Shown piece by piece: positions 43,814 through 60,047 of a stretch of DNA of 64,000 nt. Position 1 is the first letter of the stretch. Each line of letters begins with the position of its first letter. Position numbers and translations under genes: made by a program. The DNA comes from an uncultured Gammaproteobacteria bacterium (GTDB lineage: Bacteria; Patescibacteriota; Patescibacteriia; UBA9934). Under the pieces are notes generated by a model. That model had not been told where the DNA came from, did no database searches, and worked only from the letters and a program-made list of their open reading frames with translations. The stretch spans positions 14,638 to 78,637 of the forward strand of contig CAYVLY010000001.1 of assembly GCA_964452565.1 (NCBI GenBank), in the 5' to 3' direction.

Positions 43814-43863
43814 AAATATGCATCCGGTGTTCTGGGGACATCGGATGTTTTGTTTCGTGATAA

Positions 43864-45000
<1,137 letters not shown>

Positions 45001-45015
45001 TGATATACTTAGCTT

Positions 45016-45387
45016 ATGCAAACCTTTTTACTGGGGTTACGATATTTCTTTATTGACCTCGTCGGAGGAATTGTGCGTTGGCCAGTGTGGTGGTACACGC
45101 GCGGTCTTTTGTTTGTAGCAAAAGGCGGCGGAGGCTGGATTGGTGGTTATGCAAAATCACTAGCATTAAAGGTGTGGGTGAAGAATCTTTTTGTTCCAAT
45201 GTATGGGATGTATGACTGGCAGAGTAGATTGATCAGCTTTTTAATGCGCTTGGCACAGATTGTTTTCCGTGCGATTGGAGTTTTCCTTTTAAGTATTCTA
45301 GTTTTGGTTGCGATTGTGGTTTATGTTATTGCACCGCCGCTAACCATTGTCACACTGTTTTATCAAATAGTAGCACTTTATGGTTGA
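45016..45387 (+). CDS. Small membrane protein, hypothetical
   Basis: 123 aa, two or three TM helices. 8-nt overlap with the downstream clpC-like gene. Confidence 0.5.
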   Translation: MQTFLLGLRYFFIDLVGGIVRWPVWWYTRGLLFVAKGGGGWIGGYAKSLALKVWVKNLFVPMYGMYDWQSRLISFLMRLAQIVFRAIGVFLLSILVLVAIVVYVIAPPLTIVTLFYQIVALYG

Positions 45388-48028
45388 GGAAATGGAACAA
45401 GTTGAGAAGCCGATTGTTGATCAAAGCGGGGTCCCTGGAGTTTCAGTCCAAGGTGTGTTTTGGTATTGGAAGGAAAAACTAACAGAACCTTCGATTGCAT
45501 TGCGTAAAGTCCGCGATAAGATCGAAAAGGTAATAAATGGAGTTGTTGCAGCGTTGCTATTGGCGTCATTAGTTGTGGTTGTTTTGACAGTTGTATTTGG
45601 GGAAGCTGACGAGATTTTTGTCATTGATTATTGGACAAAGCCGAATATCACGAGCATCGTCGGACTTTTCGGGCTTTTATGTTTATATTTTTTGTTCTTT
45701 CGTTTTCAGGACAAGAAAATGCGCGTGGAGCATTTACCTCGAGATGTGAAACAGATCGGAGAGGTTCAAAGCATTCCTTCACTTGATGTTGTTGAAAAGC
45801 GCAAAGACATTGGCACCGTGCTTTCCCAAGAGTCTAGAGATGCTATTGAAGATGCTTATCACATTGCAAGAAAGGGTGGTCATGCACAAGTAACAGCAGT
45901 TCATTTGTTCCTTGGGTCGCTTTCGACTAGGTCAGTCTCATTACTGTTCGTTAGGTTGGGAATTACTTTTGATCAAATTAGAGACGCTTTGCGACGTAGA
46001 TTGTCTACTCTTGAAAAAGCTGACACAGTCTTTGGATATGAGGCGCAAGATATTATAGCCAATGCTTTGAAAAATGCAATGACTTTTCGAAAGTCGCAGA
46101 TAAGTGCTGTGGAGGTCTTTATGGCCGCTTATACCAAGGATGAGTTTTTGCAGGAGCTATTGTTTTCATTGGACATTGAACCAAAGGAACTTGAAAACGC
46201 TGTGATGTGGATACGTATCAATGAAGAGCTACGTGATAGATATGAAGAGTTCCGTAAGGCAGCAAGCTTTAAGCCAACAAAGGGAATGGACAGGGCAATG
46301 ACAGCAGTCGCAACGCCATTTTTGGATAAAGTATCCGAGGATCTCACCAGATCTGCTGTGTTTGGTGCATTGCCAATGTTGATTGGTAGAGATCGTGAGA
46401 TGGAAAATCTTTTGCGTGCGATCGAGGGTGGACGTCAAAGTATCGTACTTGTTGGTCCGTCTGGTGTTGGAAAAGACGCAATCGTTTATGGCTTGGCTCA
46501 GCGTATGGTTGAGGAGCGAGTCCCAAAGAGTCTTGAAGATAAGCGCTTGATAAAGATTTCAGTCCCGCATATTGCATCAGCACAAGGTGGTGCAGGAGCT
46601 GAAGAGCGGTTGCTCTATGCTATGAGCGAGGTAGCACGTGCAGGTAATGCTATTTTAGTTATCGAAAACATTGATCAACTTGTTGGTGCTGGAGGTATGG
46701 ATTTATCCGCAGTGCTTTCATCAGAGCTCGAAAAGGGCTATACGTTCGTGATTGCCACTACAACACCTCAAGGTTACTCTGGAGCGCTTGAGCAGTCTGC
46801 ATTAGGTCAAAAGCTTGAGAAGGTTGTTGTAGAAGAGCCTGGACGTGATGACGCGATTCAAGTGCTTGAGTCAAAGATCGGTGGAATCGAGAATAAAGAA
46901 AAGGTTGTATTCACTTATGAGGCTGTGGCTAGCATTGTTGATCTTTCAAGTCGCTACATGCATGATCAGTACTTGCCGCATAAAGCAATCATCCTAGCCC
47001 AAGAAGTTGGGCATATGGTTGGTGCGCAATCTCAGGATTGGGCACGTGTGGATAAGTCTCATGTTGCAAAGATGATTTCAGATAAGACAAATATCCCAGT
47101 TACTCAGGTTTCACAAGAAGAAAGTGAGAAACTTTTGAATCTAGAGGCTCGCATGCATGAGCGAATCATTGGTCAAGATGATGCAGTTAAGGCAGTATCG
47201 TCTGCGCTTCGACGTGCGCGAGTCGAGTTGCGATCTCAAGGTCGGCCGATCGCAAACTTTTTATTCTTAGGACCTACTGGAGTTGGAAAAACTGAGCTAG
47301 CAAAGACTACTGCTGAAGTCTACTTTGGAAGTGAGAATACGATGTTGCGTTTTGATATGTCTGAGTATCAGGACAAGGCATCTATATCGCGCTTGATAGG
47401 TGCTGCTGGTCAAGGTGGATTGTTAACTGAGGCTGTTCGAAAGGAGCCGTTCTCATTATTGCTGCTTGATGAGCTTGAAAAGGCGCATCCTGATATTCTT
47501 AATCTATTTTTGCAGGTTATGGATGATGGACGATTAACAGATGGCGCGGGTCGCACAGTAGACTTCACAAATGTCATTCTTATTTCAACCTCAAACGCTG
47601 GAACGCAATATATTCAAGACGAGGTCGCAAAAGAAACGCCAATGGAGCAGATTAAACAGCATTTGATGGAAGAGGAGTTAAAGCAAGTATATCGTCCAGA
47701 GTTTTTGAACCGTTTTGATGGCATCATGGTCTTTAAGCCGTTGTCACAGGAAGATGTGGTAGCAATCGCTTACTTGATGATCAAAAAGGTTGCACAGCGA
47801 CTTGATGCAAAGGGAATTAGGTTCGAAGCTTCCGATGAGGCTGTGCATGAGCTTGCAAAGCTTGGATATGATCCTAAGTTTGGAGCGCGACCTTTACGAC
47901 GTGTGATTCAAGAACGTGTTGATAATGCGATCGCTGAGTTCTTACTTCAAGGGAAGGTATCGCGCAGAGATACGCTTCTACTGCAAGCCGGCGGAGCAAT
48001 CGAAGTCCAAAAGGCCGAGGCTCTCTAA
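45380..48028 (+). CDS. ClpC/ClpA-like double-AAA+ chaperone ATPase with N-terminal membrane anchor and apparently degenerate D1 active site
   Basis: Two N-terminal hydrophobic helices, two Clp_N repeats. D1 Walker A is GPSGVGKDAI (Thr->Asp) and D1 Walker B is ILVIENIDQL (DE->EN). D2 is intact (GPTGVGKTELAKT, LLLLDELEKAH, sensor/arginine finger GARPLRR). Confidence 0.85.
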   Translation: MVEEMEQVEKPIVDQSGVPGVSVQGVFWYWKEKLTEPSIALRKVRDKIEKVINGVVAALLLASLVVVVLTVVFGEADEIFVIDYWTKPNITSIVGLFGLLCLYFLFFRFQDKKMRVEHLPRDVKQIGEVQSIPSLDVVEKRKDIGTVLSQESRDAIEDAYHIARKGGHAQVTAVHLFLGSLSTRSVSLLFVRLGITFDQIRDALRRRLSTLEKADTVFGYEAQDIIANALKNAMTFRKSQISAVEVFMAAYTKDEFLQELLFSLDIEPKELENAVMWIRINEELRDRYEEFRKAASFKPTKGMDRAMTAVATPFLDKVSEDLTRSAVFGALPMLIGRDREMENLLRAIEGGRQSIVLVGPSGVGKDAIVYGLAQRMVEERVPKSLEDKRLIKISVPHIASAQGGAGAEERLLYAMSEVARAGNAILVIENIDQLVGAGGMDLSAVLSSELEKGYTFVIATTTPQGYSGALEQSALGQKLEKVVVEEPGRDDAIQVLESKIGGIENKEKVVFTYEAVASIVDLSSRYMHDQYLPHKAIILAQEVGHMVGAQSQDWARVDKSHVAKMISDKTNIPVTQVSQEESEKLLNLEARMHERIIGQDDAVKAVSSALRRARVELRSQGRPIANFLFLGPTGVGKTELAKTTAEVYFGSENTMLRFDMSEYQDKASISRLIGAAGQGGLLTEAVRKEPFSLLLLDELEKAHPDILNLFLQVMDDGRLTDGAGRTVDFTNVILISTSNAGTQYIQDEVAKETPMEQIKQHLMEEELKQVYRPEFLNRFDGIMVFKPLSQEDVVAIAYLMIKKVAQRLDAKGIRFEASDEAVHELAKLGYDPKFGARPLRRVIQERVDNAIAEFLLQGKVSRRDTLLLQAGGAIEVQKAEAL

Positions 48029-48040
48029 CCCGCGTTATCT

Positions 48041-48068
48041 CGACTGGGTTCTGTGTTCTGGGTTCTGA
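48041..48068. repeat. Family-A repeat copy (reverse orientation) followed by bidirectional terminator hairpin ccacgcc-tcaagg-ggcgtgg (48081-48100)
   Basis: gactgggttctgtgttctgggttctg is the reverse complement of cagaacccagaacacagaacccagtc. Adjacent to the GC-rich pentapeptide-repeat gene. Confidence 0.6.
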
Positions 48069-48126
48069 AAAGCATTGAACCACGCCTCAAGGGGCGTGGT
48101 TTCGCGTACGTGCTGGCTCTCCAGCA

Positions 48127-48867
48127 CTAGTCGATCAGTTCGAGGCGCTTGTGCCGATGAGCGTCTGGGTCCCACTTGAACAGGATCGCGCCGCGCGTGT
48201 TGGCTTCATCGAAGTCGCGTTGGTACATCCGAGCTCCGGCCAGTTTGGCGCGCACGAGCTCGGTCTCGAAGTTGAACCGGGCGCCGCACATGTTAGCATC
48301 CTCAAGGCTAGCATTGGTGAGGTCCGTACCACGCAAGTCCTGCGTGCCCAGATGGAGGCCGTCGAGCTTGCAGCCCTGCAGGTCCGCATCAGGCGGGAGC
48401 CTGCTGCCAGAGGCGATCCCGCGCAGGTCTGCACCAGCCAGTCTTGCTTGCGCAAAGTTCTCGTCGATGCATACGCCCTTGAGGATTGCCCATTGCATGG
48501 TTGTTTTATCGAGCGAGGCATCACGGAAGCTCGCGTTGGTCAGGTCGGCCTCCATCAGCGTGGCGCCGTCGAGCGTTGCACGATCGAAGATCGTTCCGTG
48601 GCACTTGGCGCCGGTAAGATGCGCGCCAGTCAGGTCAGATCCGAAAAGGTTCATGCCTGAGATGTCGATCCCGCTGAGGTCGATGCCGCGCAGCCGATTG
48701 GTACCGATCCCACGGCCCTTGAAGTCGATCTCACAGTCTGGGTTGAGATGCCGGAAGCGGTTGAACCAATCAGCACCATGCTTATTGACCATGCTTGCGA
48801 AGTTGGGCAGGTCCTTGCGATACCGGGCCTTTCTTTCGTCTGGGGACTTGAAGCGGTCTTTCCTCAT
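48127..48867 (-). CDS. Pentapeptide-repeat protein (GC ~60%)
   Basis: Consecutive A(D/N)LxG pentapeptides (ADLTNASFRDASLDKT...AGADLRGIASG...). Plus-strand ORFs 48151..48660 and 48176..48925 have R/S/A-rich antisense composition and were rejected. Confidence 0.7.
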   Translation of the reverse strand: MRKDRFKSPDERKARYRKDLPNFASMVNKHGADWFNRFRHLNPDCEIDFKGRGIGTNRLRGIDLSGIDISGMNLFGSDLTGAHLTGAKCHGTIFDRATLDGATLMEADLTNASFRDASLDKTTMQWAILKGVCIDENFAQARLAGADLRGIASGSRLPPDADLQGCKLDGLHLGTQDLRGTDLTNASLEDANMCGARFNFETELVRAKLAGARMYQRDFDEANTRGAILFKWDPDAHRHKRLELID

Positions 48868-49001
48868 GTGCGTTCCTTGTCTTGTCTTTGGGTTTTTCTT
48901 GGCTGAGGATAGCGCTCTCTCGTAAAACGATACGAGTTTTTAAGCTATCACAAAGAAGGGCTTTTGTCAATCCCGCTCTGGTACGTTAAACTATATGCAT
49001 T

Positions 49002-50036
49002 ATGCCTTCATGGTGGATATATCCAGTAATACTTAGTTTTCTGATCTCATTGCTTTTGTGTGATGTGGGACGTACTTTGGGTCGTAAGTGGGGGTTTATT
49101 GATGAGCCGCGTGTTAGCCGTAAAAAACAAAAAGGCGGGGTATCGACTCTTGGTGGAGTTGCGATTTTTATTGCGGTTTCGATTAGTTCGATTGGCGTCT
49201 TGCTATTTTCAGATGTTTTAACTGGTGGCGCGATGAAAAACCTTCATTTTATTGGGTATCTCCTTGGAGGTTCAACCTTGGTGATTGGAGGCTTGATTGA
49301 TGATAGGTTCGATCTCAGAGCGCGATATTCGATCTTATTCCCGATCGCAGCAGCTTTGATCGCGGCAGGCTTTGGTATCGGTGTATCAAAAATAACAAAC
49401 CCTCTTGGTGGTTTTTTCGAAGTCGGAGATCTCTTGTCGTTTGGTGTGACTTTTGTGTGGCTTTTGGGTATGACGTACGTGACCAAGTTGCTCGATGGAC
49501 TCGATGGCCTTGCATCAGGGGTAAGTTCAATCGCAGGCCTTATGATGGGCTTTCTGGCGCTCTCTGTTGCGTTTTACCAACCAGATGCGGCACTACTCTC
49601 GTTTTTGATCGTTGCGGCATTCCTAGGCTTTTTAGTGTGGAATTGGAACCCTGCAAGTATTTATCATGGTGAAGCAGGAAGTACCTTTGTTGGTTATTCA
49701 ATTGGAGTTTTAGCTGTGATTGGAGGAGGGAAGTTTGCTACTGCTTTACTAGTCGTTGCGATTCCGTTATTTGATATTCTTTTCGTGCTTTGGGACCGAT
49801 ATCGTAGCGGGGTACCACTTTTTGCAGGAGATAGGCGGCATTTACATTTCAGACTTCGTGATCTTGGGCTTAGTACACGTTCGATAGTCTTGATCTACTA
49901 TGGAGTCGCGCTTTTGTTTGGACTTTCAACATTGGTTTTTGAAAGTTGGCAAAAGATAGTGGCGCTTGCAGTTCTGTTTGTCGGTTTACTCATTTCGATT
50001 TATTACATTCAAAAATGTCAAAAGAAGACGCGCTAA
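49002..50036 (+). CDS. MraY/WecA-family polyprenyl-phosphate N-acetylhexosamine-1-phosphate transferase (GT4 family)
   Basis: Multi-TM protein. IDDRFDL and TKLLDGLDGLASG are hallmark MraY/WecA motifs. 344 aa is closer to WecA/TagO than to MraY. Confidence 0.75.
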   Translation: MPSWWIYPVILSFLISLLLCDVGRTLGRKWGFIDEPRVSRKKQKGGVSTLGGVAIFIAVSISSIGVLLFSDVLTGGAMKNLHFIGYLLGGSTLVIGGLIDDRFDLRARYSILFPIAAALIAAGFGIGVSKITNPLGGFFEVGDLLSFGVTFVWLLGMTYVTKLLDGLDGLASGVSSIAGLMMGFLALSVAFYQPDAALLSFLIVAAFLGFLVWNWNPASIYHGEAGSTFVGYSIGVLAVIGGGKFATALLVVAIPLFDILFVLWDRYRSGVPLFAGDRRHLHFRLRDLGLSTRSIVLIYYGVALLFGLSTLVFESWQKIVALAVLFVGLLISIYYIQKCQKKTR

Positions 50037-50476
50037 AAATCGCTTTGGTGATAATGGGATTGGTTATCGCAGCAATTTTGGTGATGTTTGTGTTTCTACA
50101 GGAGCAGGAAATAGAAAGAACACAGATTATAATCAATGATCATGTACTTGATGTGTACATTGCGCAGACTTCAGCTGAACATGCGCAGGGGTTATCAGGC
50201 ATTGATTTATCTGAATTCGATGCCGATGGAATGTTATTTATATTTGAGGATCCAATCGAGCGAACGTTTTGGATGAAGGATATGGAGTTTGCAATAGATA
50301 TAGTATGGATCAGAGACAGTGAAATAGTTGAGATCGAAGAGGGGCTTTCTGTTCCTAATAATCAAGATATTCTATATATGTACTCTGATCCATACAAGGT
50401 CGACGCTGCCCTTGAGCTGCCTGCCGGGGATGTGGATAAGTATGGTATTGACTTAAATCAAAAAGTGAGCTTTTGA
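50015..50476 (+). CDS. DUF192-family protein (signal-anchored)
   Basis: ATG 50015 overlaps the upstream gene by 22 nt. TM LKIALVIMGLVIAAILVMFVFL then FWMKDMEFAIDIVWI, typical of DUF192. Confidence 0.6.
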   Translation: MSKEDALKIALVIMGLVIAAILVMFVFLQEQEIERTQIIINDHVLDVYIAQTSAEHAQGLSGIDLSEFDADGMLFIFEDPIERTFWMKDMEFAIDIVWIRDSEIVEIEEGLSVPNNQDILYMYSDPYKVDAALELPAGDVDKYGIDLNQKVSF

Positions 50477-50482
50477 ATGAGT

Positions 50483-50550
50483 AAATGCCAACTCTCGGTG
50501 TTGGCATTTAAAAAAGCAGTGAAGCCGCCCCGTGCGGGCGGCTTTTGGGG
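50483..50550. terminator. Bidirectional terminator region (two hairpins)
   Basis: aaatgccaac-tctcggt-gttggcattt and aagccgccc-cgtgc-gggcggcttttgggg. On the reverse strand it reads hairpin + ttttttaaa for the 50564..50788 gene. Confidence 0.65.
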
Positions 50551-50563
50551 TTCGCGAGTTAGG

Positions 50564-50788
50564 CTATATAAGGAATGCTACGGGCATGAGCAGCAATCCG
50601 AGGATCGCGAGTACGATCGAAGCGATCCGCTTGCGTCGGATCGAACGCTTGGCGCCGCTCCAACACATTCCACGGCTTGAGGAGCCCTCGAATGCTTCAT
50701 CAAGCCTGATCTCGTCATCTGCAGCATCGAGCCATAGGTAGACGGCGGCACCAATGGCCAAGAGAGAAGCTATTATGAGCCAGAGCAT
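50564..50788 (-). CDS. Small GC-rich membrane protein, hypothetical
   Basis: 74 aa, two hydrophobic helices separated by a charged loop. GC-rich. May instead be non-coding. Confidence 0.35.
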   Translation of the reverse strand: MLWLIIASLLAIGAAVYLWLDAADDEIRLDEAFEGSSSRGMCWSGAKRSIRRKRIASIVLAILGLLLMPVAFLI

Positions 50789-50848
50789 ATTTCACCTGAA
50801 GAGATTGGGGTTGAAGATGGGACAAAGACTTCAACAACCTTATCACTA

Positions 50849-50877
50849 TTGACGAAGTTTGGCTATTTTGTTACTAT
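50849..50877 (+). promoter_or_regulatory. Sigma70-like promoter for rplU
   Basis: TTGACG-17 nt-TACTAT, ~85 nt upstream of the ATG. Confidence 0.35.
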
Positions 50878-50961
50878 TTCGGCGTTAAATAAGTAAGGCT
50901 CGCAGGTGGTATCAACATATCGATTCAGATCGATAGACCCTATGCGGCCGTAAAAAACTAT

Positions 50962-51276
50962 ATGTTCGCAATTATTCAAACTGGTGGAAAACAGTACTTG
51001 GTCGAGGAAGGTCAGACCTTGAAGGTCGAAAAGCTCGATAACAAGGACGGTGATAAGATCGAGTTCGATGCATTGCTAGTTTCTGATGACAAAGGAAAAG
51101 AAACAAAAGTAGGGACTCCACTTGTACCAAATGCAAAGGTAACGGCTTCAGTAATCGAAACTGGAAAAGGCAAGAAGATTACAATCATCAAGTATAAGCC
51201 AAAGTCAAAGTATAGACGAAAGTCTGGTCACCGACAGCCATACACGGCTATCAAGATCGAAAAGATCACAGCATAA
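50962..51276 (+). CDS. rplU: 50S ribosomal protein L21
   Basis: MFAIIQTGGKQYLVEEGQTLKVEKL ... KITIIKYKPKSKYRRKSGHRQPYTAIKIEKI. Confidence 0.9.
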   Translation: MFAIIQTGGKQYLVEEGQTLKVEKLDNKDGDKIEFDALLVSDDKGKETKVGTPLVPNAKVTASVIETGKGKKITIIKYKPKSKYRRKSGHRQPYTAIKIEKITA

Positions 51277-51290
51277 ACACACAAGCAAAA

Positions 51291-51326
51291 AAGCACCCGT
51301 TCGATATTCTCGAGCGGGTGTTTTGT
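51291..51326 (+). terminator. Terminator hairpin, left copy of an inverted-repeat pair
   Basis: gcacccg-ttcgatattctcgag-cgggtg-ttttg. Its reverse complement recurs at 52010-52047. Confidence 0.7.
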
Positions 51327-51375
51327 TGAGCCTAATGTAAAAAAGTTATATTATGTACCCAATTAACAGTGATTT

Positions 51376-52005
51376 ATGGGTAAGGTACTAAGTTTTCCTG
51401 GGTCTGGAGGTGTTGCAGGGGAAGGGGCTGGCAGGCGTCCAGGTGAGGATGATCGAAAGCAGGCCGAAGATGAGCGTCTGGATGGAGGTGAGTTAAAAGA
51501 AGACGCTGGCGAAGGTCAAGAAGCTTATGAAGATGGAGGGGTGGATTTAGGGCCCGAGGAAGAGGATAAGGAGCGTGGTCAGCTTATTTCGTTTGCTGAT
51601 GCAGCTAGGGCTGAAGCCCAGGCCCGTCAAGATGAGCAAGACGAAGATCCACTTGATCTTGATCAGTATGGCGACGATATGCTTTTTGGTTTGGGCTCTT
51701 TGAGGGGTGGAGGTGCCTTTGAGGGTAGTCACGGTGCCTATATGTCACGATTAATGGATGCATTGGAGCATGGCTCGAGATGGAGTAAGAAGGGTCAGAT
51801 AATGTCGGTATTGAGAACTTTACAAAGAGGATCGGCCTCACAAGTCGCAAGGAACGTGGCTCTTAGAAGAGACATGATTAAAGAATACAAAACAGAAGAG
51901 TTAGCAGATATCCTCGAAGGCAGCAAAGAACCTGATTGGACGGCCCAACCTAGTTACTATCAGGCAGTAATCCAGGAGCTAGATTCGCGTGATTATAGAG
52001 AATAG
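51376..52005 (+). CDS. Hypothetical acidic protein (disordered D/E/G-rich N-half, structured C-half), bracketed by inverted identical terminator hairpins
   Basis: 209-aa ORF, moderately GC-enriched (~52-55%). No recognisable motif. Sits between rplU and recR. Confidence 0.5.
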   Translation: MGKVLSFPGSGGVAGEGAGRRPGEDDRKQAEDERLDGGELKEDAGEGQEAYEDGGVDLGPEEEDKERGQLISFADAARAEAQARQDEQDEDPLDLDQYGDDMLFGLGSLRGGGAFEGSHGAYMSRLMDALEHGSRWSKKGQIMSVLRTLQRGSASQVARNVALRRDMIKEYKTEELADILEGSKEPDWTAQPSYYQAVIQELDSRDYRE

Positions 52006-52009
52006 AGAC

Positions 52010-52047
52010 AAAAAAACACCCGCTCGAGAATATCGAACGGGTGCTTT
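52010..52047 (-). terminator. Terminator hairpin for recR, right (inverted) copy of the pair
   Basis: Reverse strand reads cacccg-ttcgatattctcgag-cgggtg-ttttttt. Stem and loop match 51294-51320 on the other strand. Confidence 0.7.
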
Positions 52048-52050
52048 GTA

Positions 52051-52650
52051 TTACATTTCAGATCTACCGAGAAGCGCGTCGCCGAGGGTTACCTCGTCGG
52101 TATATTCGAGATCTGCGCCGATTGGGAGTCCGCGGGCTAATCGGGTCGCGCGTCGATCTAACTCTTTCACCTTACGCGCTAAGAACATCATGGTTGTCTC
52201 TCCGTGAACATCTGGAGAAAATGCAAGAATCACCTCTCGGATATCCGGATTCGATTCGATTCGATCAACCATCTCCTCAACCTTTAGCGTTTCCGGAGTC
52301 ATCCCATCGATCGGATTCAAGACCCCACCCAAGACGAGATACCTTCCATTATATGCATTAGCCGCCTCGATAGTTGAGATGTCTCGAGATTCCGACACAA
52401 CGCACAGCACGTCGCTCGATCGTTTATCATCAGTACATATCGAACAAATCGGATCTTCTGCATGCGCAAAACATTGTGAGCAGGTTTGAACATGCTGCAA
52501 ATCAACAATGGCGCGAGCTAATTGCTCGCGCTCATCTTGCCGCATCCGCAATAGAGTAAAGGCGTATCGAAGAGCTGTCTTTGGTCCTACGCCTGGAAAT
52601 CGAGTTAACGCTGCAACAACATTGTGAATTGGAGCAGGGAATTTTCGCAT
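52051..52650 (-). CDS. recR: Recombination protein RecR
   Basis: HhH FPGVGPKTALRYAF, C4 zinc finger CSQCFAHAEDPICSIC, Toprim VLCVVSESRD ... DGE. Confidence 0.9.
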   Translation of the reverse strand: MRKFPAPIHNVVAALTRFPGVGPKTALRYAFTLLRMRQDEREQLARAIVDLQHVQTCSQCFAHAEDPICSICTDDKRSSDVLCVVSESRDISTIEAANAYNGRYLVLGGVLNPIDGMTPETLKVEEMVDRIESNPDIREVILAFSPDVHGETTMMFLARKVKELDRRATRLARGLPIGADLEYTDEVTLGDALLGRSEM

Positions 52651-52651
52651 G

Positions 52652-52945
52652 TTAGCCCATCATGTCTTTAAGAGCATCAAGCCCTCCCATGTCTTTCATC
52701 TTTGCAGCCATTTCTTGCTGAAGTTTCTTTGACGCATCATTAAAAGCGTCTTGGACACCCTTTTCAATCTTTTCACGCTCAAGCTCTGGATTTATCTTAA
52801 CACCTTGAACCTTTTGATTTCCATCAACTGTGATCATGATCTTACCGCCCATGGCTTTCCCCACAATCATAATCTCAGCAAGTGCTGCCTGCATAGTTTT
52901 TGCCTGCGAACGCATGTCTTTTATCTGTTTGATCTTGTTGAACAT
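52652..52945 (-). CDS. ybaB: YbaB/EbfC nucleoid-associated protein
   Basis: MFNKIKQIKDMRSQAKTMQAALAEI...ITVDGNQKVQGVKINPEL...DAFNDASKKLQQEMAAKM. The adjacent ybaB-recR pair is conserved. Confidence 0.85.
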   Translation of the reverse strand: MFNKIKQIKDMRSQAKTMQAALAEIMIVGKAMGGKIMITVDGNQKVQGVKINPELEREKIEKGVQDAFNDASKKLQQEMAAKMKDMGGLDALKDMMG

Positions 52946-52950
52946 AGTAT

Positions 52951-52988
52951 ATTGTTAATTTAAGTATGCAGTAGGCAGTATACAGTAT
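52951..52988 (-). promoter_or_regulatory. Conserved upstream motif copy (reverse strand) immediately 5' of ybaB
   Basis: Reverse complement reads actgcatactgtatactgcctactgcatact, matching the ACTGYGTACTGTRTACT element at 28926-28960 and 54510-54550. Confidence 0.4.
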
Positions 52989-52992
52989 GCAG

Positions 52993-54450
52993 TTATTTTT
53001 GTGGAATATCAGCTCCTTTTGGCGGAACTCCTGGTGGCAGACCCACATTTGCAGGATTTGATTCAACTTGTTGCGTTTGAGCAGGAGGAGCAATGTGCTT
53101 TGTATCAAGGTTTTTGAAACTTGCGCGTTTCGCATCCCAAAATAGCTTTACCATTCCTGTTGGTCCGTTACGATGCTTTGCAATATGTACTTCTCCAGAG
53201 TTTCGCTCCTCAGGAGTAAGCTCTTCAAGCGAATAGTTTCTGTCCGCTGCTTTTCGATATAGGAACATCACCACATCAGCGTCTTGCTCAATGGATCCAG
53301 ATTCACGCAAATGTGAAAGTTTTGGAATTGCTGGTTTAGTTTGCTCAACTGCACGAGATAGCTGCGCCAATGCAAGAACTGGGACTTGAAGCTCACGACC
53401 GATCTGCTTGAGGCCTCTGCTGATTTCCGCAACTTCGTTAACACGGTTGTCGCTATTATTTGTTCGACCCTCCATAAGCTGGAGATAATCAATAACGATC
53501 ATTGACAGGCCGTGTTCTGCCTTGAGTCTACGAGCCTTAGCTCTAATATTCATGATATTAGCTGCAGGTGTGTCATCAATGTAAATCGGCGCGTCTGATA
53601 GTTTTGCAAGCGCATCGCCGATTCGAGGAAAATCATCATCACGATCAGATAGCCGTCCTGTGCGAAGTTTCCAAAGGTCGATATTACCTTCTGCGCAAAT
53701 CAAACGATCAACAAGCTGTTCCTTTGCCATTTCCAAAGAGAAGAGTCCGACAGGTTCTTTTGAGCGAAGTGCACAGTTGCGAATAATATCAAGCGCGAGT
53801 GATGTCTTACCAACAGAAGGGCGAGCTGCAAGAATAACAAGATCAGATTTCTGAAGTCCAGCAAGCAAGTTGTCAATTCCAGTGAATCCAGTGGGAATAC
53901 CGCGCAATTTACCTCGTTCTTTGTGAAGTTTATCAATTCGATCAAATGCGTCAGTCAGAATCGATCGAATTGGAGTAAATGCCTTTTGGATAAAGTTTGA
54001 AGAAACGTCAAACAGTTTTTGCTCAGCTTCATCAATAATTGAATCAATCTCATCGGTTTCGTTATATCCAAGTTCAGTAATTCGAGATGCTGCACCTAAA
54101 AGCCTGCGTAAAGTCGCTTTCTTTTGGATGATCTTTCCATAGTTTGCAACATGCGCCGAGGTAGTAACCCGATTGGTGATCTCAACAAGTGCTGTACGAC
54201 CGCCGATTCGATCAAGCATTTTCTTTTCCTCAAGCCTATTTCCAACAGTTAAGACATCTATCGGTTCGTGTCGCTCAAACAAGTCCAGCATTGTTTCAAA
54301 GATGATGCGGTGCGATTCTTTGTAAAAGTCATCTCCACGCACAACATCCATGACCCTAGCTAAGGATTCTTGATCAATGAAAATACTACCCAAAAGCGAC
54401 TCTTCAGCCTCTAGGTTGTGTGGAGGGATTTTTGATAATTCGCTCGGCAT
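52993..54450 (-). CDS. dnaB: Replicative DNA helicase DnaB
   Basis: N-terminal PPHNLEAEESLLGSIF, Walker A AARPSVGKTSLAL, H3/H4 motifs. 485 aa, no intein. Confidence 0.9.
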   Translation of the reverse strand: MPSELSKIPPHNLEAEESLLGSIFIDQESLARVMDVVRGDDFYKESHRIIFETMLDLFERHEPIDVLTVGNRLEEKKMLDRIGGRTALVEITNRVTTSAHVANYGKIIQKKATLRRLLGAASRITELGYNETDEIDSIIDEAEQKLFDVSSNFIQKAFTPIRSILTDAFDRIDKLHKERGKLRGIPTGFTGIDNLLAGLQKSDLVILAARPSVGKTSLALDIIRNCALRSKEPVGLFSLEMAKEQLVDRLICAEGNIDLWKLRTGRLSDRDDDFPRIGDALAKLSDAPIYIDDTPAANIMNIRAKARRLKAEHGLSMIVIDYLQLMEGRTNNSDNRVNEVAEISRGLKQIGRELQVPVLALAQLSRAVEQTKPAIPKLSHLRESGSIEQDADVVMFLYRKAADRNYSLEELTPEERNSGEVHIAKHRNGPTGMVKLFWDAKRASFKNLDTKHIAPPAQTQQVESNPANVGLPPGVPPKGADIPQK

Positions 54451-54509
54451 GTGTGTATCTTACCGAAGACCGTGCGATTATCAAGTGTGAACTGTGTAGA
54501 GAGTGGGGA

Positions 54510-54555
54510 TCCCCTGTGAACTGAGCACCGTGTACTGTGTACTGTGATATAATTA
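54510..54555 (+). promoter_or_regulatory. Conserved upstream motif copy + -10 (GATATAAT) for permease gene
   Basis: cctgtgaactgagcaccgtgtactgtgtactgtgatataat is ~85% identical to 28926-28960. Confidence 0.4.
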
Positions 54556-54563
54556 AGTCAATT

Positions 54564-55703
54564 ATGACCACAAAATCAAAGAAATTTATTAGTGGCGCGC
54601 AGTCATTGATCGGTGCAGTAATTGGGGTTGGGATCTTTGGATTGCCTTACATTTTTTCGCAAGCAGGTTATGCGATAGGACTTACCCATTTGATTGTTAT
54701 TGGCGCTGTTAGTCTTACAATAGTCTTAGCATATGCTGAGATTGTACTGCATGCTAATGGACATCATCGACTATCTGGAAATGTAGAAGGTTTTTTGGGT
54801 CATTTTTGGGGACATGTCACAAGTATATCCCTATTTGCTGCAAACTGGGGGGCAATGCTTGCTTACATTATTTTGGGCGGAGAGTTTTTACATGCGCTTA
54901 CCGCATGGTTTTTTGGTGGAAGTGTTCTCATATTCCAGTTTGTATTTTTTGCAATCTGTGCCGCAATTTTGATTGGTGGCCTTGGATTTGTTTCACGCAC
55001 AGAATCAATATTTGTGTTTATTCTTATTGCGCTGTTGATTATCATAATCGGTGGCTCAGCACCTTATGTCGATGTCTCAAACTTGATGACAATCGAGCCC
55101 GCGCTTGCTTTTGCACCATTTGGAGTGGTGTTCTTTGCATTTGGTGGAACTGCAACTGTACCAGAAATGAAGGCCATATTGGGGCGACATAAGAGGCTAC
55201 TTAAAAAAGCAATTCTTTTGGCTTTTGGTGTTATAACAGCGGTTTATGTTTTGTTTACTGCGGCGGTTGTGAGTGTGACTGGAAATGATACGACTGAGGA
55301 GGCCATTCTCGGATTAGGAGATTATCTTGGCGATTGGGCAGTAATAGTTGGATCTTTGATAGGATTATTTGCAGTGTTTACAAGCTTCTTGATTCTTGGC
55401 GTGCAAGTGATGGATACGGCAATATACGATTACAAGGCTCGATACATGACTGGATGGGCTTGGGCCATCGCAGCTCCGTTCATTCTTTTTATCGTGGGCG
55501 CACGTGATTTCATTGGAGTAATCGGGTTCACTGGAGGTGTGTTTGGTGTGATTATTGGGTTGGTGGTAGTTTCAATGTACAAGAAGGCTAAAAAGAGTGC
55601 ACTGGCAACTAAGCGAAGATTCACAATCCCAAATTGGCTTTTGAATGTTGTGATTGTAATACTACTTCTAGGTATGGTCTCAACAATTGCAGGTGTGCTA
55701 TAG
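54564..55703 (+). CDS. Amino-acid permease, aromatic amino acid (Mtr/TnaB/TyrP-like) transporter family
   Basis: N-terminal SLIGAVIGVGIFGLPYIFSQAGY. ~11 TM helices. ATG 54564 chosen over GTG 54537 because the promoter motif overlaps the latter. Confidence 0.7.
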   Translation: MTTKSKKFISGAQSLIGAVIGVGIFGLPYIFSQAGYAIGLTHLIVIGAVSLTIVLAYAEIVLHANGHHRLSGNVEGFLGHFWGHVTSISLFAANWGAMLAYIILGGEFLHALTAWFFGGSVLIFQFVFFAICAAILIGGLGFVSRTESIFVFILIALLIIIIGGSAPYVDVSNLMTIEPALAFAPFGVVFFAFGGTATVPEMKAILGRHKRLLKKAILLAFGVITAVYVLFTAAVVSVTGNDTTEEAILGLGDYLGDWAVIVGSLIGLFAVFTSFLILGVQVMDTAIYDYKARYMTGWAWAIAAPFILFIVGARDFIGVIGFTGGVFGVIIGLVVVSMYKKAKKSALATKRRFTIPNWLLNVVIVILLLGMVSTIAGVL

Positions 55704-55757
55704 ATTGACGGCCCAGGTTGTCCATTTCTAAAAACCAAACACCCAGCCACACCCCCT

Positions 55758-55812
55758 CCATCCCGAGCGAGCGGAGACCCGTCCGACGGGTCGGAGCGAG
55801 TCGAGGGATCTC
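55758..55812. repeat. Palindromic repeat, family C-related (catcccgagcgag...gagcgagtcgagggatct)
   Basis: ccatcccgagcgagcggagacccgtc-cga-cgggtcggagcgagtcgagggatctc. A partial partner (agatccctcggcgttgctcgggatgg) lies at 56111-56136 on the other side of the GIY-YIG gene. Confidence 0.65.
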
Positions 55813-56095
55813 AAGTTATATCTTCATACAAATCGCGAAATAGCAGATTCATTTGTCTAATGAGTCTATTTTTCTTTTTCCTACTCCAGCGTTTGATTTG
55901 GTACTCGCGATGGATTGCTTCATTTATATCGTCATATGTCTCGTAATAGATTAACTTGTGTACATTGTATTTTTCAGTAAAACCTTTAACAAAATTATTT
56001 TTGTGTTGATAAACACGTCTAATTAAGTCGGCAGTTGATCCGCAGTACACCACCACATTGTTCTTGTTTGCGAGTATGTAGAAATAGCCTTGCAT
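55811..56095 (-). CDS. GIY-YIG nuclease-domain protein (UPF0213/YhbQ-like), flanked by palindromic repeats
   Basis: YFYILANKNNVVVYCGSTADLIRRVYQHK ... KGFTEKY ... LIYYE ... EYQIKRWSRKKK. Three alternative ATGs sit between 56095 and 56110. Confidence 0.75.
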   Translation of the reverse strand: MQGYFYILANKNNVVVYCGSTADLIRRVYQHKNNFVKGFTEKYNVHKLIYYETYDDINEAIHREYQIKRWSRKKKNRLIRQMNLLFRDLYEDIT

Positions 56096-56166
56096 AGACA
56101 TAAGCTTCAAGAGATCCCTCGGCGTTGCTCGGGATGGAAAGAATTAAGATTAGGACAAAATAAAAA

Positions 56167-56193
56167 CCAGGAACGCGTCCTGGAATTTATTTT
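56167..56193. terminator. Bidirectional terminator hairpin
   Basis: ccaggaacgcgtcctgg flanked by A-run and T-run. Confidence 0.6.
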
Positions 56194-56255
56194 GACATCG
56201 AAAGTTGACTTTCGCCTCGTCCGTAATTATATTTCAGCATCTTGAATCCCCCATG

Positions 56256-56483
56256 TCAATCGTTATTGTGGAGAAGTTTGTTGTATATTTCGTTAAGTAC
56301 GTTTTTGCCAAGGTTCCTGGTTATCCATTCATCCCACTCTCCAGATTTAAACTCCTCATAGCTCATCATCTTGGCGTTATCAGTGTGGCCACTGCCTTGA
56401 TGACTGCCGATGGTTACACTGTTGCGATCGATATGCACGTAATGCGTTGTGTTTCCCTTAACTTTTTCCCAGACACCATTCAT
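56256..56483 (-). CDS. Small hypothetical protein downstream of folD
   Basis: 75 aa. Its start abuts the folD stop (operonic). Confidence 0.45.
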   Translation of the reverse strand: MNGVWEKVKGNTTHYVHIDRNSVTIGSHQGSGHTDNAKMMSYEEFKSGEWDEWITRNLGKNVLNEIYNKLLHNND

Positions 56484-56484
56484 A

Positions 56485-57312
56485 CTATTTCTGCATCTCA
56501 GCTGCCTCGGTAACGTTCTTTAAAAGAAATGCAACTGTAAGCGGCCCAACACCTCCTGGAACTGGACTTATAAAACCTGCAATGTCGTGAGTATCTTCTG
56601 CAACATCGCCGACATTCTTCCCGTCTTTCTTATTAGTACCAACATCGATAATTATTGCACCCTCTTTGACCATGTCAACTTTCACGAAGTCGGCTTCACC
56701 AACAGCTACTACGATTATATCTGCTGCACGAGTCTTACTAGCTAGAGCAGATTCATCTTTTCCAAAACGCTGAGATTCTATCTTATTTTCACTAAGAAGT
56801 ACTTTTATCGGTTCTGCAAAGATATCGCTATTACTGATAATCACAGCCTGCTTTCCTTCAAGTGGTTGATGGCTAGCTTTGATCAATTTTTCGATCGCGA
56901 GCGCTACAGGCGGAAAAATGGCCTCGTCTTTTTTACCCCAACGTGTTTTGTTCTCATCATGAAAGCCGTCAATGTCTTTTTTAGGGTCAAGCGCCGCAAT
57001 TATTTTATCTTCATCCTGATTTGGAAGAGGGAACTGTACAAGTATTCCATGAATATCATCGCGATCATTAAGTTCTTTGATTTGATCAATGAGTTCTCCA
57101 TTGCTCACATTCTCATCAAACTCAAAACGTTCAAAGTACATTCCAACCTCTTTAGCTGCTTTTTCTTTCAGTAATACATACAGCTTTGACGCTGGATTAT
57201 TGCCAACCAAAATAGCTGCAAGTCCCAATGGCTTATCATGCTTCTTTATTTCCTTTGCAACCTTGTCGCGGATTGTTTGTGCTAATTGTTTTCCTTGTAA
57301 TATTTCGGACAT
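56485..57312 (-). CDS. folD: Bifunctional methylenetetrahydrofolate dehydrogenase/cyclohydrolase
   Basis: LAAILVGNNPASKLYV..K, GILVQFPLP, and C-terminal dinucleotide fold GRSKIVG-like region. Confidence 0.9.
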   Translation of the reverse strand: MSEILQGKQLAQTIRDKVAKEIKKHDKPLGLAAILVGNNPASKLYVLLKEKAAKEVGMYFERFEFDENVSNGELIDQIKELNDRDDIHGILVQFPLPNQDEDKIIAALDPKKDIDGFHDENKTRWGKKDEAIFPPVALAIEKLIKASHQPLEGKQAVIISNSDIFAEPIKVLLSENKIESQRFGKDESALASKTRAADIIVVAVGEADFVKVDMVKEGAIIIDVGTNKKDGKNVGDVAEDTHDIAGFISPVPGGVGPLTVAFLLKNVTEAAEMQK

Positions 57313-57313
57313 A

Positions 57314-60046: not shown

Positions 60047-60047
60047 T

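What the first reader, a model, noticed from the sequence alone, without database searches (positions are those of the whole stretch)
51287..52050. Single gene bracketed by inverted copies of one terminator hairpin, inserted between rplU and recR
The rplU terminator (51291-51326, cacccg-ttcgatattctcgag-cgggtg-tttt) and the recR terminator (52010-52047) are the same ~38-nt sequence in inverted orientation, so both convergent transcripts end in an identical stem-loop. Between them is a 630-bp ORF (51376-52005) for a highly acidic protein with a disordered N-half. Its GC is somewhat above background. Two explanations fit: a 38-bp-TIR element with cargo, or an insertion into a bidirectional terminator that was then duplicated or inverted.
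Basis: seen in the sequence. Interest (0 to 1): 0.6.

Follow-up and report, generated by a model that had tools for sequence, protein, structure and literature searches.

The report
Accessory gene inside a duplicated terminator
In this Candidatus Uhrbacteria genome a fast-evolving accessory gene of unknown function lies between the ribosomal gene rplU and the repair gene recR, flanked by two copies of the terminator hairpin native to that junction; it is a tidy gene gain/loss hotspot, not a transposon.

Summary
A 35-nt stem-loop (51290-51324) recurs as an exact inverted copy (52013-52047) around one 209-aa ORF, between convergent rplU and recR. The organism is a Candidatus Uhrbacteria (CPR) bacterium.

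The hairpin is the resident bidirectional terminator of this conserved junction. Six relatives have rplU and recR 20-150 bp apart with one hairpin and no gene. One of them is about as close as any relative found (L093) and carries nearly the same stem.

The nearest relative that has the gene (L001) also has two hairpin copies, but in direct orientation. Both window copies share a derived 5-nt loop in opposite orientation, so one copy was secondarily flipped or converted. Each flanking essential gene now transcribes the stronger stem (about -23 versus -16 kcal/mol).

In other Uhrbacteria, unrelated cassettes after rplU are bracketed by direct copies of the rplU 3' end plus terminator. This points to a recurrent insertion hotspot.

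No transposase, target-site duplication or dispersed copies were found, so the TIR-element reading is not supported.

The ORF is a real gene of an unannotated family that, wherever a source could be checked, comes from CPR genomes or unidentified metagenome contigs. It has an N-terminal MGKxLxFP motif, an acidic disordered linker and a confident helical C-domain. It evolves about 10 times faster than its neighbours. Its function is unknown.

The parts
50962..51276 (+). rplU (ribosomal protein L21), left flanking gene; stop TAA at 51274-51276
   Evidence: Pfam Ribosomal_L21p E 1.7e-39. Conserved synteny mraY-like/DUF192/rplU facing recR/ybaB/dnaB in the Uhrbacteria loci and in loci labelled Falkowbacteria, Parcubacteria, Doudnabacteria and Saccharibacteria.
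51290..51324 (+). Hairpin copy A. The extended stem-loop is AAAG-CACCCGTTCGA-TATTC-TCGAGCGGGTG-TTTT (core 51294-51320), followed by a GTTG tail. It is the intrinsic terminator of rplU. Its interior is in flipped orientation relative to the orthologous hairpin of relatives.
   Evidence: RNA dG is -23.7 kcal/mol on the + strand (z -7.2) against -16.5 on the - strand. The loop is TATTC here, but GAAA on the same strand in L093 and in both L001 copies, and GAATA in window copy B.
51326..51354 (+). Promoter-like site for the ORF: TTGAGC-17 nt-TATTAT. The -35 hexamer starts right after the hairpin's T-tract.
   Evidence: Consensus scan, 9 of 12 matches. L001 has TTGAAT-17-TACAAT at the equivalent position directly after its rplU-side hairpin. 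Each match alone is at chance level, so only the positional conservation is suggestive. Inferred, not shown.
51376..52005 (+). ORFX, 209 aa. Residues 1-9 form the motif MGKVLSFPG. Residues about 10-130 form an acidic, Gly-rich disordered linker. Residues about 131-205 form a helical domain containing NVALRR...S-x-E-x-DW-x3-PSYYQAVIQELDSR.
   Evidence: 21 remote homologues (20 credible after excluding the repeat protein P0012) among 1.84 billion representatives, all matching the C-domain. Alignment A1 has invariant S183, W188 and P192 and a shared N-terminal motif. AF2 pLDDT exceeds 90 for residues about 141-209. No Pfam, NCBIfam, PHROGs, PADLOC, PDB-sequence, Foldseek-PDB or BFVD match. dN versus the L001 orthologue is 0.65, against 0.06-0.07 for rplU and recR.
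52013..52047 (-). Hairpin copy B (core 52017-52043). On the - strand it is identical to copy A and is followed by TTTTTTTG, making it the intrinsic terminator of recR. On the + strand it is a weaker stem (C.A mismatch, tail CTTTGTAT) lying 11 nt after the ORFX stop codon.
   Evidence: Terminator scan hit on the - strand with 15 pairs. dG is -23.2 on the recR-sense strand and -16.0 on the ORFX-sense strand.
52051..52650 (-). recR, right flanking gene, first of the recR-ybaB-dnaB block on the - strand
   Evidence: Pfam Toprim_4, RecR_HhH and RecR_C. 91% identical to the L001 protein and 90% to the L093 protein.

Best explanation
The two hairpins are two copies of the bidirectional intrinsic terminator that belongs to the conserved convergent rplU/recR junction of Candidatus Uhrbacteria. 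Between them sits a lineage-restricted, independently transcribed accessory gene (ORFX).

Shown:
- The junction normally holds one hairpin and no gene.
- The hairpin predates the gene.
- The gene-bearing sister lineage has the two copies in direct orientation.
- Other Uhrbacteria carry unrelated cassettes after rplU, bracketed by direct copies of the rplU 3' end plus terminator.

Inferred:
1. ORFX was inserted immediately after the rplU terminator by an event that duplicated the terminator. The likeliest route is single-crossover (Campbell-type) integration of DNA carrying a copy of that region. A trans-acting site-specific recombinase is not excluded.
2. The copies then exchanged sequence (concerted evolution).
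3. In this genome one copy was overwritten or flipped in inverted register after the loop had acquired a derived extra base.
4. The result is that rplU and recR each transcribe the fully paired (G.U) version of the stem, about -23 kcal/mol. ORFX, driven by a promoter that begins at the T-tract of copy A, ends at the weaker face of copy B.
5. Direct copies also offer a simple route to precise loss, which may explain the empty site in L093.

ORFX itself is most likely a non-enzymatic binding protein: an N-terminal docking motif, an acidic flexible linker and a small helical domain. Its partner is unknown.
For: Empty sites. The rplU-recR gap is 24-75 bp with one hairpin in L002, L003, L010, L014 and L019. 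In L093 the gap is 146 bp with the single hairpin CACCCGTTCGAGAAATCGAACGGGTG and no ORFX hit. L093 is as close to the window as L001 is: RecR is 90% identical, and the concatenated protein distance is 0.109 against 0.104.

Native hairpin. L002 and L004 have AAAAAACACCC...GGGTGTTTTTT at the same place.

Direct copies in the sister lineage. In L001 (identical to L095) the ORFX orthologue is flanked by copies that are 91% identical as direct repeats and 79% as inverted repeats.

Flip. On the rplU-sense strand the loop reads GAAA in L093 and in both L001 copies, GAATA in window copy B, and TATTC in window copy A. Both window copies therefore carry the same derived 5-nt loop in opposite orientation, and the 35-nt tract is identical.

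Energetics.

Recurrence at the same site.
- In L008 a 165-aa lipoprotein-like gene is bracketed by direct copies of the rplU 3' end plus terminator (59 nt, 81%).
- In L007 about 1.9 kb, holding a HepT/nucleotidyltransferase pair and a membrane protein, is bracketed by copies of the last 12 rplU codons plus a hairpin (40 nt, 90%).

No mobility genes. No mobility domain was found in ORFX or in the large annotated ORFs from 41750 to 61010.

Promoter-like sites lie at the same position in the window and in L001.

ORFX is a real gene.
Against: - The order of events is not resolved. A four-point bootstrap on 860 aa favours (L001,L093) at 68% over (window,L001) at 30%. The gene may therefore be ancestral to all three lineages and lost in L093, rather than gained after L093 split off.
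- An ORFX homologue lies next to a recR fragment in a third lineage (L097/L103), which suggests the arrangement is older still.
- In the window and in L001 the duplication does not detectably extend into the rplU coding end, unlike L007 and L008. The same mechanism is assumed for all four, not shown.
- The flip mechanism is inferred from sequence only. It could be inverted-register gene conversion or recombination within the stem.
- Termination and promoter activity are untested. The simple terminator scan lists copy B but not copy A, because once the A-tract is counted as stem, the tail of copy A (GTTG...) fails its T rule.
- Only 64 kb of a contig of about 710 kb could be searched for further copies.
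Confidence: 0.7

Rival explanations
1. A non-autonomous mobile element (MITE-like or REP/RAYT-like) bounded by 38-bp terminal inverted repeats and carrying ORFX as cargo, which transposed into the rplU/recR spacer.
For: A near-perfect 39-nt inverted repeat brackets exactly one gene. The gene is absent from several relatives. ORFX-family genes occur at unrelated loci in other genomes.
Against: - The repeat is the site's own terminator. It is present once in gene-less relatives with the same stem and flanks.
- The sister lineage has direct copies, not inverted ones.
- There are no other copies in 64 kb.
- The metagenome scan gave only the orthologous junction (L093, L095) plus unrelated, mostly high-GC matches.
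- No target-site duplication is seen next to the repeats.
- ORFX has no transposase, HUH or recombinase match.
- Family members elsewhere have no flanking hairpin pair.
Confidence: 0.04
2. An invertible DNA segment (inverton). The 35-bp inverted repeats would be recombination sites that let the ORFX cassette flip, switching its expression or its antisense effect on rplU and recR.
For: The geometry fits known invertons: perfect inverted repeats of tens of bp flanking a few hundred bp that contain a promoter-like site. k-mer assemblies break at both repeats.
Against: - No invertase or recombinase was found in the large annotated ORFs from 41750 to 61010.
- The orthologous cassette in L001 has direct repeats and the same gene orientation, so inversion is not a conserved property.
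- Flipping a cassette that carries both its promoter and its gene would not obviously switch anything.
- The contig breaks are expected from repeat length alone.
Confidence: 0.05
3. The rplU terminator hairpin is an attachment site for site-specific, hairpin-directed cassette integration by a recombinase encoded elsewhere. This would resemble integron attC or tRNA-gene att sites. ORFX would be one such cassette, and the duplicated hairpins would be attL and attR.
For: - Unrelated cassettes recur at the same site, each with direct duplication of the terminator, with or without the rplU 3' end.
- A precise empty site exists.
- Two further hairpin-bracketed genes were seen: DUF559 in the window, and the two-cassette, three-repeat structure in L103 that contains an ORFX homologue.
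Against: - No integrase was seen near any of these sites.
- The repeat lengths and boundaries differ from case to case (35 to about 85 nt). That fits homology-driven integration better than a fixed core site.
- The hairpin lacks the paired RYYYAAC/GTTRRRY cores of attC. Only a one-sided GTTGAGC is present, and it doubles as the -35 hexamer.
- The L103 block contains a truncated recR, which indicates an illegitimate breakpoint.
Confidence: 0.15
4. ORFX arrived with a terminator of its own. The present identity of the two hairpins is due only to later gene conversion or to convergent selection for a strong terminator, not to duplication at insertion.
For: Sequence exchange between the copies clearly occurs, since copies within a genome resemble each other more than they resemble their positional orthologues.
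Against: Conversion needs initial similarity. L007 and L008 show duplications that include rplU coding sequence, which cannot be an imported terminator. Convergence would not reproduce the loop sequence.
Confidence: 0.08

Closest known systems
Bidirectional intrinsic (Rho-independent) terminators between convergent genes, as described in E. coli by SEnd-seq (bioRxiv 10.1101/2022.10.23.513370; PMC13500782)
   Same: A GC-rich stem flanked by an A-tract and a T-tract, placed 7-17 nt after the stop codons of convergent genes and able to fold on both strands. Gene-less relatives have exactly one such hairpin serving both genes.
   Different: Here the terminator exists as two copies with a gene between them. 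Each copy is asymmetric (G.U versus C.A) and faces its stronger side to the outer gene. Function is untested.
Genomic islands and islets integrated at the 3' end of a tRNA, tmRNA or protein gene and flanked by direct repeats that duplicate the target's 3' end (own knowledge of integrative elements)
   Same: A conserved site with variable cargo. Direct repeats made of the target's 3' end or terminator occur in L001, L007 and L008. A precise empty site exists in relatives.
   Different: The cargo is only 0.6-1.9 kb with no integrase. The repeat boundaries vary. In the window the repeat is inverted.
Phage 'morons': single accessory transcription units with their own promoter and terminator, inserted between conserved genes (own knowledge; Hendrix and colleagues)
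   Same: One gene with a promoter-like site upstream and a hairpin downstream, present in some genomes and absent from close relatives, in an otherwise syntenic block.
   Different: The context is chromosomal and non-phage. There is no phage or plasmid homologue. The composition is not clearly foreign. The terminator is a copy of the neighbour's.
REP/REPIN elements with RAYT genes, and MITEs
   Same: A palindromic extragenic hairpin in inverted copies flanking one gene.
   Different: The gene is not a RAYT or HUH transposase. The hairpin is not dispersed. There is no target-site duplication.
Integron gene cassettes (ORF plus attC hairpin)
   Same: Small single-gene units separated by hairpin-forming repeats. 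The L103 structure, with three direct 70-100-nt repeats and two cassettes, looks array-like.
   Different: No IntI is nearby and there are no paired attC core sites. The hairpin has terminator features (A/T tracts).
Invertons (DNA inversion switches bounded by inverted repeats)
   Same: A 35-bp perfect inverted repeat around about 680 bp that contains a promoter-like site.
   Different: No invertase was found. The orthologue has direct repeats. Both orientations have not been observed.

Membership tests
Intrinsic bidirectional terminator | Stable GC-rich stem-loop, clearly more stable than shuffled sequence | tested here: met
   dG is -23.7 (copy A, + strand) and -23.2 (copy B, - strand), z about -7, with 0 of 200 shuffles as stable. 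The reverse faces give -16.5 and -16.0.
Intrinsic bidirectional terminator | U-tract after the stem on the transcribed strand, and an A-tract before it for the opposite direction | tested here: met
   Copy A reads AAAAAAG-stem-TTTTGTTG. Copy B on the - strand reads stem-TTTTTTTG. Copy B on the + strand has only CTTTGTAT, which is weak. The scan lists copy B on the - strand. Copy A misses the scan's tail rule once its TTTT is counted as stem.
Intrinsic bidirectional terminator | Position just after the stop codons of convergent genes, conserved in relatives | tested here: met
   The core of copy A starts 17 nt after the rplU stop. The core of copy B starts 7 nt after the recR stop. A single hairpin occupies the same junction in L002, L003, L010, L019 and L093.
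Intrinsic bidirectional terminator | Transcripts actually end there | not testable with these tools
   No transcriptome data are available for this organism here.
TIR transposon / MITE | Terminal inverted repeats | tested here: met
   39 nt, 97% complementary.
TIR transposon / MITE | Target-site duplication directly outside the repeats | tested here: not met
   The flanks are ...cacaagcaaa | repeat ... repeat | gtattacatt... and share no direct repeat.
TIR transposon / MITE | Multiple dispersed copies, or copies at non-orthologous sites | tested here: not met
   Only the two copies exist in 64 kb at up to 3 mismatches. The metagenome scan returned the orthologous junction (L093, L095) plus unrelated sequences. 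The other ~650 kb of the genome were not available.
TIR transposon / MITE | Empty site lacks the repeat | tested here: not met
   Empty sites retain one copy of the hairpin.
REP/RAYT unit | The enclosed gene is an HUH/Y1 (RAYT) transposase | tested here: not met
   No Pfam, NCBIfam or PHROGs match at E <= 1. No PDB sequence match was found either.
Integron cassette | attC with paired core sites (RYYYAAC ... GTTRRRY) and an IntI integrase nearby | tested here: not met
   Only a one-sided GTTGAGC follows copy A and its complement is not found upstream. No integrase was found in the large annotated ORFs from 41750 to 61010.
Inverton | Both orientations present in a population, and an invertase | not testable with these tools
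No invertase is nearby. The orthologue in L001 has the same orientation and direct repeats.
Islet at a gene 3' end with att-like direct repeats | Direct repeats that duplicate the target's 3' end or terminator, and a precise empty site in relatives | tested here: inconclusive
   Met in L001, L007 and L008, and the empty site is met. In the window the repeat is inverted and does not reach into rplU. No integrase was identified.
ORFX protein family (unnamed) | N-terminal M-[GA]-[KDE]-[IV]-[IL]-x-F-P motif plus a C-terminal domain with invariant S, W and P (S183, W188, P192) | tested here: met
   Alignment A1 of 21 sequences. phmmer E-values run from 1e-12 to 1e-4. The reciprocal best match is the L001 orthologue, 42% identical in the C-domain.

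The most novel reading that the evidence does not exclude
Terminator hairpins, above all the rplU terminator, might serve in Uhrbacteria (and perhaps other CPR bacteria) as attachment sites for a dedicated cassette-insertion process that duplicates the hairpin. That would be a minimal, integrase-in-trans or transformation-driven analogue of integrons and tRNA-gene islands, through which these tiny genomes gain and shed single accessory genes.

The examples so far would be:
- the ORFX unit;
- the DUF559 gene bracketed by a 38-nt hairpin element in this window;
- the HepT/MNT and lipoprotein cassettes after rplU in L007 and L008;
- the three-repeat, two-cassette structure in L103.

The inverted copy in this genome would then show that such sites can also flip.
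Probability: 0.18. Interest if true: 0.6.

Novelty: new variant of a known kind. Interest (0 to 1): 0.35.

Why it matters
- It is a clean, sequence-resolved example of how a streamlined CPR genome gains, keeps and probably loses a single accessory gene at a terminator between essential genes. Empty, direct-repeat and inverted-repeat states are all observed in near relatives.
- It is a caution for annotation. A duplicated native terminator can look like the terminal inverted repeats of a mobile element, and it breaks k-mer assemblies.
- It flags a recurrent insertion hotspot directly after rplU in Uhrbacteria.
- It flags an unannotated, very fast-evolving protein family that could be followed up.
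- None of this overturns current understanding.

Tried and rejected
Function of ORFX
- Pfam, NCBIfam, PHROGs and PADLOC gave nothing credible for ORFX or its 20 homologues.
- A profile search against PDB sequences gave nothing at E <= 10.
- Foldseek of the AF2 model against PDB and BFVD gave no hit below E 0.4.
- tblastn against the phage and plasmid collections gave no match.

Searches for more family members
- The word-indexed protein search found only ORFX itself. With the family alignment it added just two known members.

Guilt by association
- Family members lie in unrelated contexts: after a tRNA, after Gmad2, next to a glycosyl hydrolase, near obg. No functional inference was possible.

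Rejected readings
- Foreign origin from GC content: rejected.
- rpmA or ysxB replacement after rplU: no L27 gene is present in the window or in the loci.
- Structured RNA or tRNA at the site: no Rfam or ARAGORN hit anywhere in the window.
- Assembly artefact: rejected. Independent Logan contigs match 100% up to both repeats, and the L001/L095 assemblies show the same anatomy.

Other
- Literature searches found nothing on Uhrbacteria hairpin repeats.
Full report
**1. What is in the sequence**

rplU (50962-51276, +; Pfam L21, E 1.7e-39) and recR (52051-52650, -; Toprim_4, RecR_HhH, RecR_C) converge on a 774-bp spacer. The spacer holds one ORF, 51376-52005 (+), of 209 aa.

Directly after each flanking gene lies the same stem-loop.
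- The repeat finder gives arms 51290-51328 and 52009-52047: 39 nt, 97% complementary, 680 nt apart.
- The 27-nt core CACCCGTTCGATATTCTCGAGCGGGTG is exact on + at 51294 and on - at 52017.
- There is no third copy in the 64-kb window at up to 3 mismatches, and no match in 100 shuffles.
- Identity covers the whole extended hairpin AAAG...TTTT, 35 nt.

Independent Logan contigs from run SRR8146440 are 100% identical to the window and stop inside each hairpin. So the repeat is real, and it is long enough to break a k-mer assembly.

Only the 'GC above background' point is weak. The ORF is 0.492 against 0.440 for the window, the same as recR. Ten percent of 630-nt windows are as high. The excess sits in the Gly/Glu/Asp-rich N-half.

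**2. The hairpins as terminators**

Each copy has an A-tract before the stem and a T-tract after it. The stem carries one asymmetric position, which pairs as G.U on one strand and is a C.A mismatch on the other.

| Copy | Strand | dG (kcal/mol) |
|---|---|---|
| A | rplU sense (+) | -23.7 |
| B | recR sense (-) | -23.2 |
| A | opposite strand (-) | -16.5 |
| B | ORFX sense (+) | -16.0 |

Each essential outer gene therefore reads the strong face. ORFX ends at the weak face of copy B, whose tail is only CTTTGTAT.

A sigma-70-like site, TTGAGC-17-TATTAT (51326-51354), begins right at the T-tract of copy A. The relative L001 has TTGAAT-17-TACAAT at the same relative position. Each match alone is at chance level. 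Only their shared position suggests a promoter.

**3. Organism and synteny**

RecR relatives place the window in Candidatus Uhrbacteria, within Patescibacteria/CPR. The block mraY-like/DUF192/rplU facing recR/ybaB/dnaB is conserved through the Uhrbacteria loci. It also appears in loci labelled Falkowbacteria, Parcubacteria, Doudnabacteria and Saccharibacteria.

The rplU-recR gap varies widely.
- It is 24-75 bp with one hairpin and no gene in L002 (RecR 81%), L003, L010, L014 and L019.
- It ranges from 140 bp to more than 4 kb in other relatives.
- The single hairpins of L002 and L004 read AAAAAACACCC...GGGTGTTTTTT. That is the same stem base and flanks as the window hairpin.

A metagenome scan for the hairpin pattern returned two relevant contigs.
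- L095 is identical to L001.
- L093 is as close to the window as L001 is (RecR 90%; concatenated protein distance 0.109 against 0.104). It has a 146-bp gap, a single hairpin CACCCGTTCGAGAAATCGAACGGGTG and no ORFX.

The other ten hits are unrelated sequences, mostly high-GC, none with rplU or recR nearby. The hairpin is therefore native to the junction and predates the gene.

**4. The sister state and the flip**

L001 (RecR 91%) has an ORFX orthologue, co-directional with rplU, between two hairpin copies. There the copies are direct: 91% identical as direct repeats against 79% as inverted repeats.

Read on the rplU-sense strand, the loops are:

| Hairpin | Loop |
|---|---|
| L093 (single) | GAAA |
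| L001, both copies | GAAA |
| Window copy B | GAATA |
| Window copy A | TATTC |

Both window copies thus share a derived extra loop base but in opposite orientation. The T-tract and promoter flank of copy A (TTTTGTTGA) is unchanged relative to L001.

The simplest reading is as follows.
1. The copies were originally direct.
2. They exchanged sequence. Copies within a genome resemble each other more than they resemble their positional orthologues.
3. In this lineage the rplU-side copy was overwritten or flipped in inverted register.

The possible mechanisms are gene conversion using the palindromic stem as homology, or recombination between the stem arms. This step is inferred. It is favoured functionally because it gives rplU the -23.7 face instead of the -16.5 face.

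**5. A recurrent hotspot**

Other Uhrbacteria show the same theme at the same place.
- In L008 a 165-aa lipoprotein-like gene after rplU is bracketed by direct copies of the rplU 3' end, stop codon and terminator (59 nt, 81%).
- In L007 about 1.9 kb is bracketed by copies of the last 12 rplU codons plus a hairpin (40 nt, 90%), with a third hairpin in between. The insert holds a HepT-like RNase with a nucleotidyltransferase, and a membrane protein.

Duplications that include rplU coding sequence cannot be imported element ends. They are what a single-crossover integration of DNA carrying a copy of that region would leave, or what a recombinase acting at a site overlapping the gene end would leave. 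Direct copies also allow precise deletion back to one hairpin.

**6. Gain or loss?**

The window, L001 and L093 are nearly equidistant: 75-76% nt identity and protein distances of 0.104-0.109. A four-point bootstrap gives (L001,L093) 68%, (window,L001) 30% and (window,L093) 1%.

A third lineage (P0006/P0024; loci L097, L098, L103-L106) has an ORFX homologue convergent to a truncated, frameshifted recR fragment. That fragment is 71-77% identical at the nt level to recR of this clade. The context is different (YraN ... nusA), and the whole block is bracketed by direct copies of a 70-100-nt repeat.

The ORFX-recR adjacency is therefore older than the window/L001 split, and it has itself been mobilised. 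The gene is derived relative to the wider family, but L093 may well be a secondary loss. The direction is not settled.

**7. Why not a TIR element, integron cassette or inverton**

- There is no target-site duplication.
- There are no dispersed copies.
- Empty sites keep a hairpin.
- The sister lineage has direct repeats.
- No transposase or recombinase domain was found in ORFX or in the large annotated ORFs from 41750 to 61010. Those ORFs are an Ig-like-domain protein, TGT, ClpB, a pentapeptide protein, an MraY-like protein, DUF192, a 74-aa ORF, L21, RecR, YbaB, a permease, FolD, SHMT, a Mur ligase and MurB. DnaB was identified by homology only.
- Family members elsewhere lack flanking hairpin pairs.
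- Paired attC core sites are absent.
- Inversion cannot be tested without reads. It is not a conserved property.

**8. The protein**

ORFX is a real gene.
- An exhaustive HMMER search of 1.84 billion representatives found 21 remote homologues. One of them (P0012) is a repetitive protein that I excluded as spurious. All match the C-terminal 60-75 residues.
- The alignment shows a shared N-terminal motif M-[GA]-[KDE]-[IV]-[IL]-x-F-P and a variable acidic linker. The C-domain carries NVALRR and S-x-E-x-DW-x3-PSYY-x-A-x3-EL-x2-R, with invariant S183, W188 and P192. Some members carry the domain twice.
- AlphaFold gives pLDDT above 90 for residues about 141-209. Helices span 119-204, and the N-half is disordered.
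- No family, structure, phage, plasmid or defence-system match was found.
- The best reciprocal match is the L001 orthologue, at only 42% identity in the C-domain. dN is 0.65, against 0.06-0.07 for rplU and recR. That is roughly tenfold faster, yet still below the (saturated) synonymous divergence.

The architecture suggests a non-enzymatic binding or adaptor protein with an N-terminal docking motif. This is a low-confidence inference, and the partner is unknown.

**9. Verdict**

This is a genuine and well-resolved feature, but of a familiar kind: an accessory gene lodged in a duplicated native terminator at an insertion hotspot. Three details are uncommon.
- An inverted-register copy gives both outer genes the strong hairpin face.
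- Unrelated cassettes recurrently use the rplU terminator.
- The protein family is unannotated and fast-evolving.

Interest is modest. The most novel reading not excluded is a dedicated hairpin-targeted cassette-insertion process in CPR genomes.

Noticed in passing
window 26736-27212: Two direct copies (97%) of a 38-nt hairpin element, CTAACCCC[T/C]TCCTTACGAAGGAGGGGATAGGGGAGGTT, lie at 26736-26773 and 27175-27212. They bracket a single DUF559 gene (26777-27130, Pfam E 3e-32), which has a further CCCCCTTCGAAAGGGGG hairpin after its stop. Weaker copies lie at 61030-61104, and a similar element occurs in relative L097 near 287-325. This is a second 'one gene between copies of one hairpin' case.
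   Followed up: partly
L103 4090-6123 (also L097, L098, L104-L106): Three direct copies of a 70-100-nt repeat (AGTCACTCCGTCTTAGACATTAAGACTTAGACAA[A/G]GAGACTTAGACATTTTGTCTAAGTCTTGGAGAGAA...) separate two 'cassettes'. One is a GC-rich ORF. The other is the block [ORFX homologue - hairpin - truncated, frameshifted recR]. Both are inserted between a UPF0102/YraN gene and nusA. The layout is array-like, and no recombinase was seen.
   Followed up: partly
L008 6829-7543; L007 7945-9918: Unrelated cargo inserted after rplU is bracketed by direct duplications of the rplU 3' coding end plus terminator. The cargo is a lipoprotein-like gene in L008, and a HepT/nucleotidyltransferase toxin-antitoxin-like pair plus a membrane protein in L007.
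   Followed up: yes
L004 rplU-recR spacer (277 bp); L001 between the recR-side hairpin and recR (~100 bp): L004 has three tandem ~33-nt units, CCCCACTTCGACCGTAGGGAGAAGTCTTCTAT, plus an inverted partial copy (..CTCGAGATGGGGAC..). L001 has a related remnant. This small repeat family occupies the same junction in gene-less or gene-bearing relatives. It was seen only by eye.
   Followed up: no
window 31429-32782: Direct repeats of 132 nt (98%; 32003-32134 and 32651-32782) and of 63 nt (84%; 31429-31491 and 32132-32194) define tandem ~650-700-bp units. The units contain ORFs with no Pfam match (31433-31981, 32206-32640).
   Followed up: no
window 11859, 30370, 32058, 32706, 52962; L001 and L093 just after rplU: Short periodic intergenic repeats (14-nt period, CAGAATGCAGAACC / GTATGCAGTAGGCAGT type) recur in several spacers. 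These include the ybaB-dnaB spacer and, in relatives, the stretch between rplU and its hairpin, which the window lacks.
   Followed up: no
window 25265-25289, 28075-28104, 61528-61560; 56111-56140 / 61506-61535: The palindrome CCTGCCTGCCGGCAGGCAGG occurs three times, and a separate 30-nt inverted pair is 90% complementary. These are further dispersed extragenic palindromes in this small genome.
   Followed up: no
window 48127-48867 (-): A pentapeptide-repeat protein gene has GC 0.60 against 0.44 for the window. It is the clearest compositional outlier near the finding.
   Followed up: no
window 50477-50961: The DUF192-rplU spacer holds a 74-aa ORF (50564-50788, -) with a hydrophobic N-terminal stretch and only weak Pfam matches (E 0.04-0.2), GC about 0.52, and its own hairpin at 50522-50544. 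The size of this spacer also varies among relatives, for example about 270 bp in L002 and about 1.2 kb in L001.
   Followed up: no
L005 835-5594: In this relative (which also encodes ORFX-family member P0014 on another contig, L083) the dnaB-ybaB-recR block is inverted. All genes run co-directionally after rplU, so the convergent junction is lost.
   Followed up: no
window 50962-51276 and all recR loci: rplU is not followed by rpmA (L27) here or in any fetched locus, whereas many bacteria have an rplU-rpmA operon. No L27 gene occurs within the 64-kb window.
   Followed up: partly
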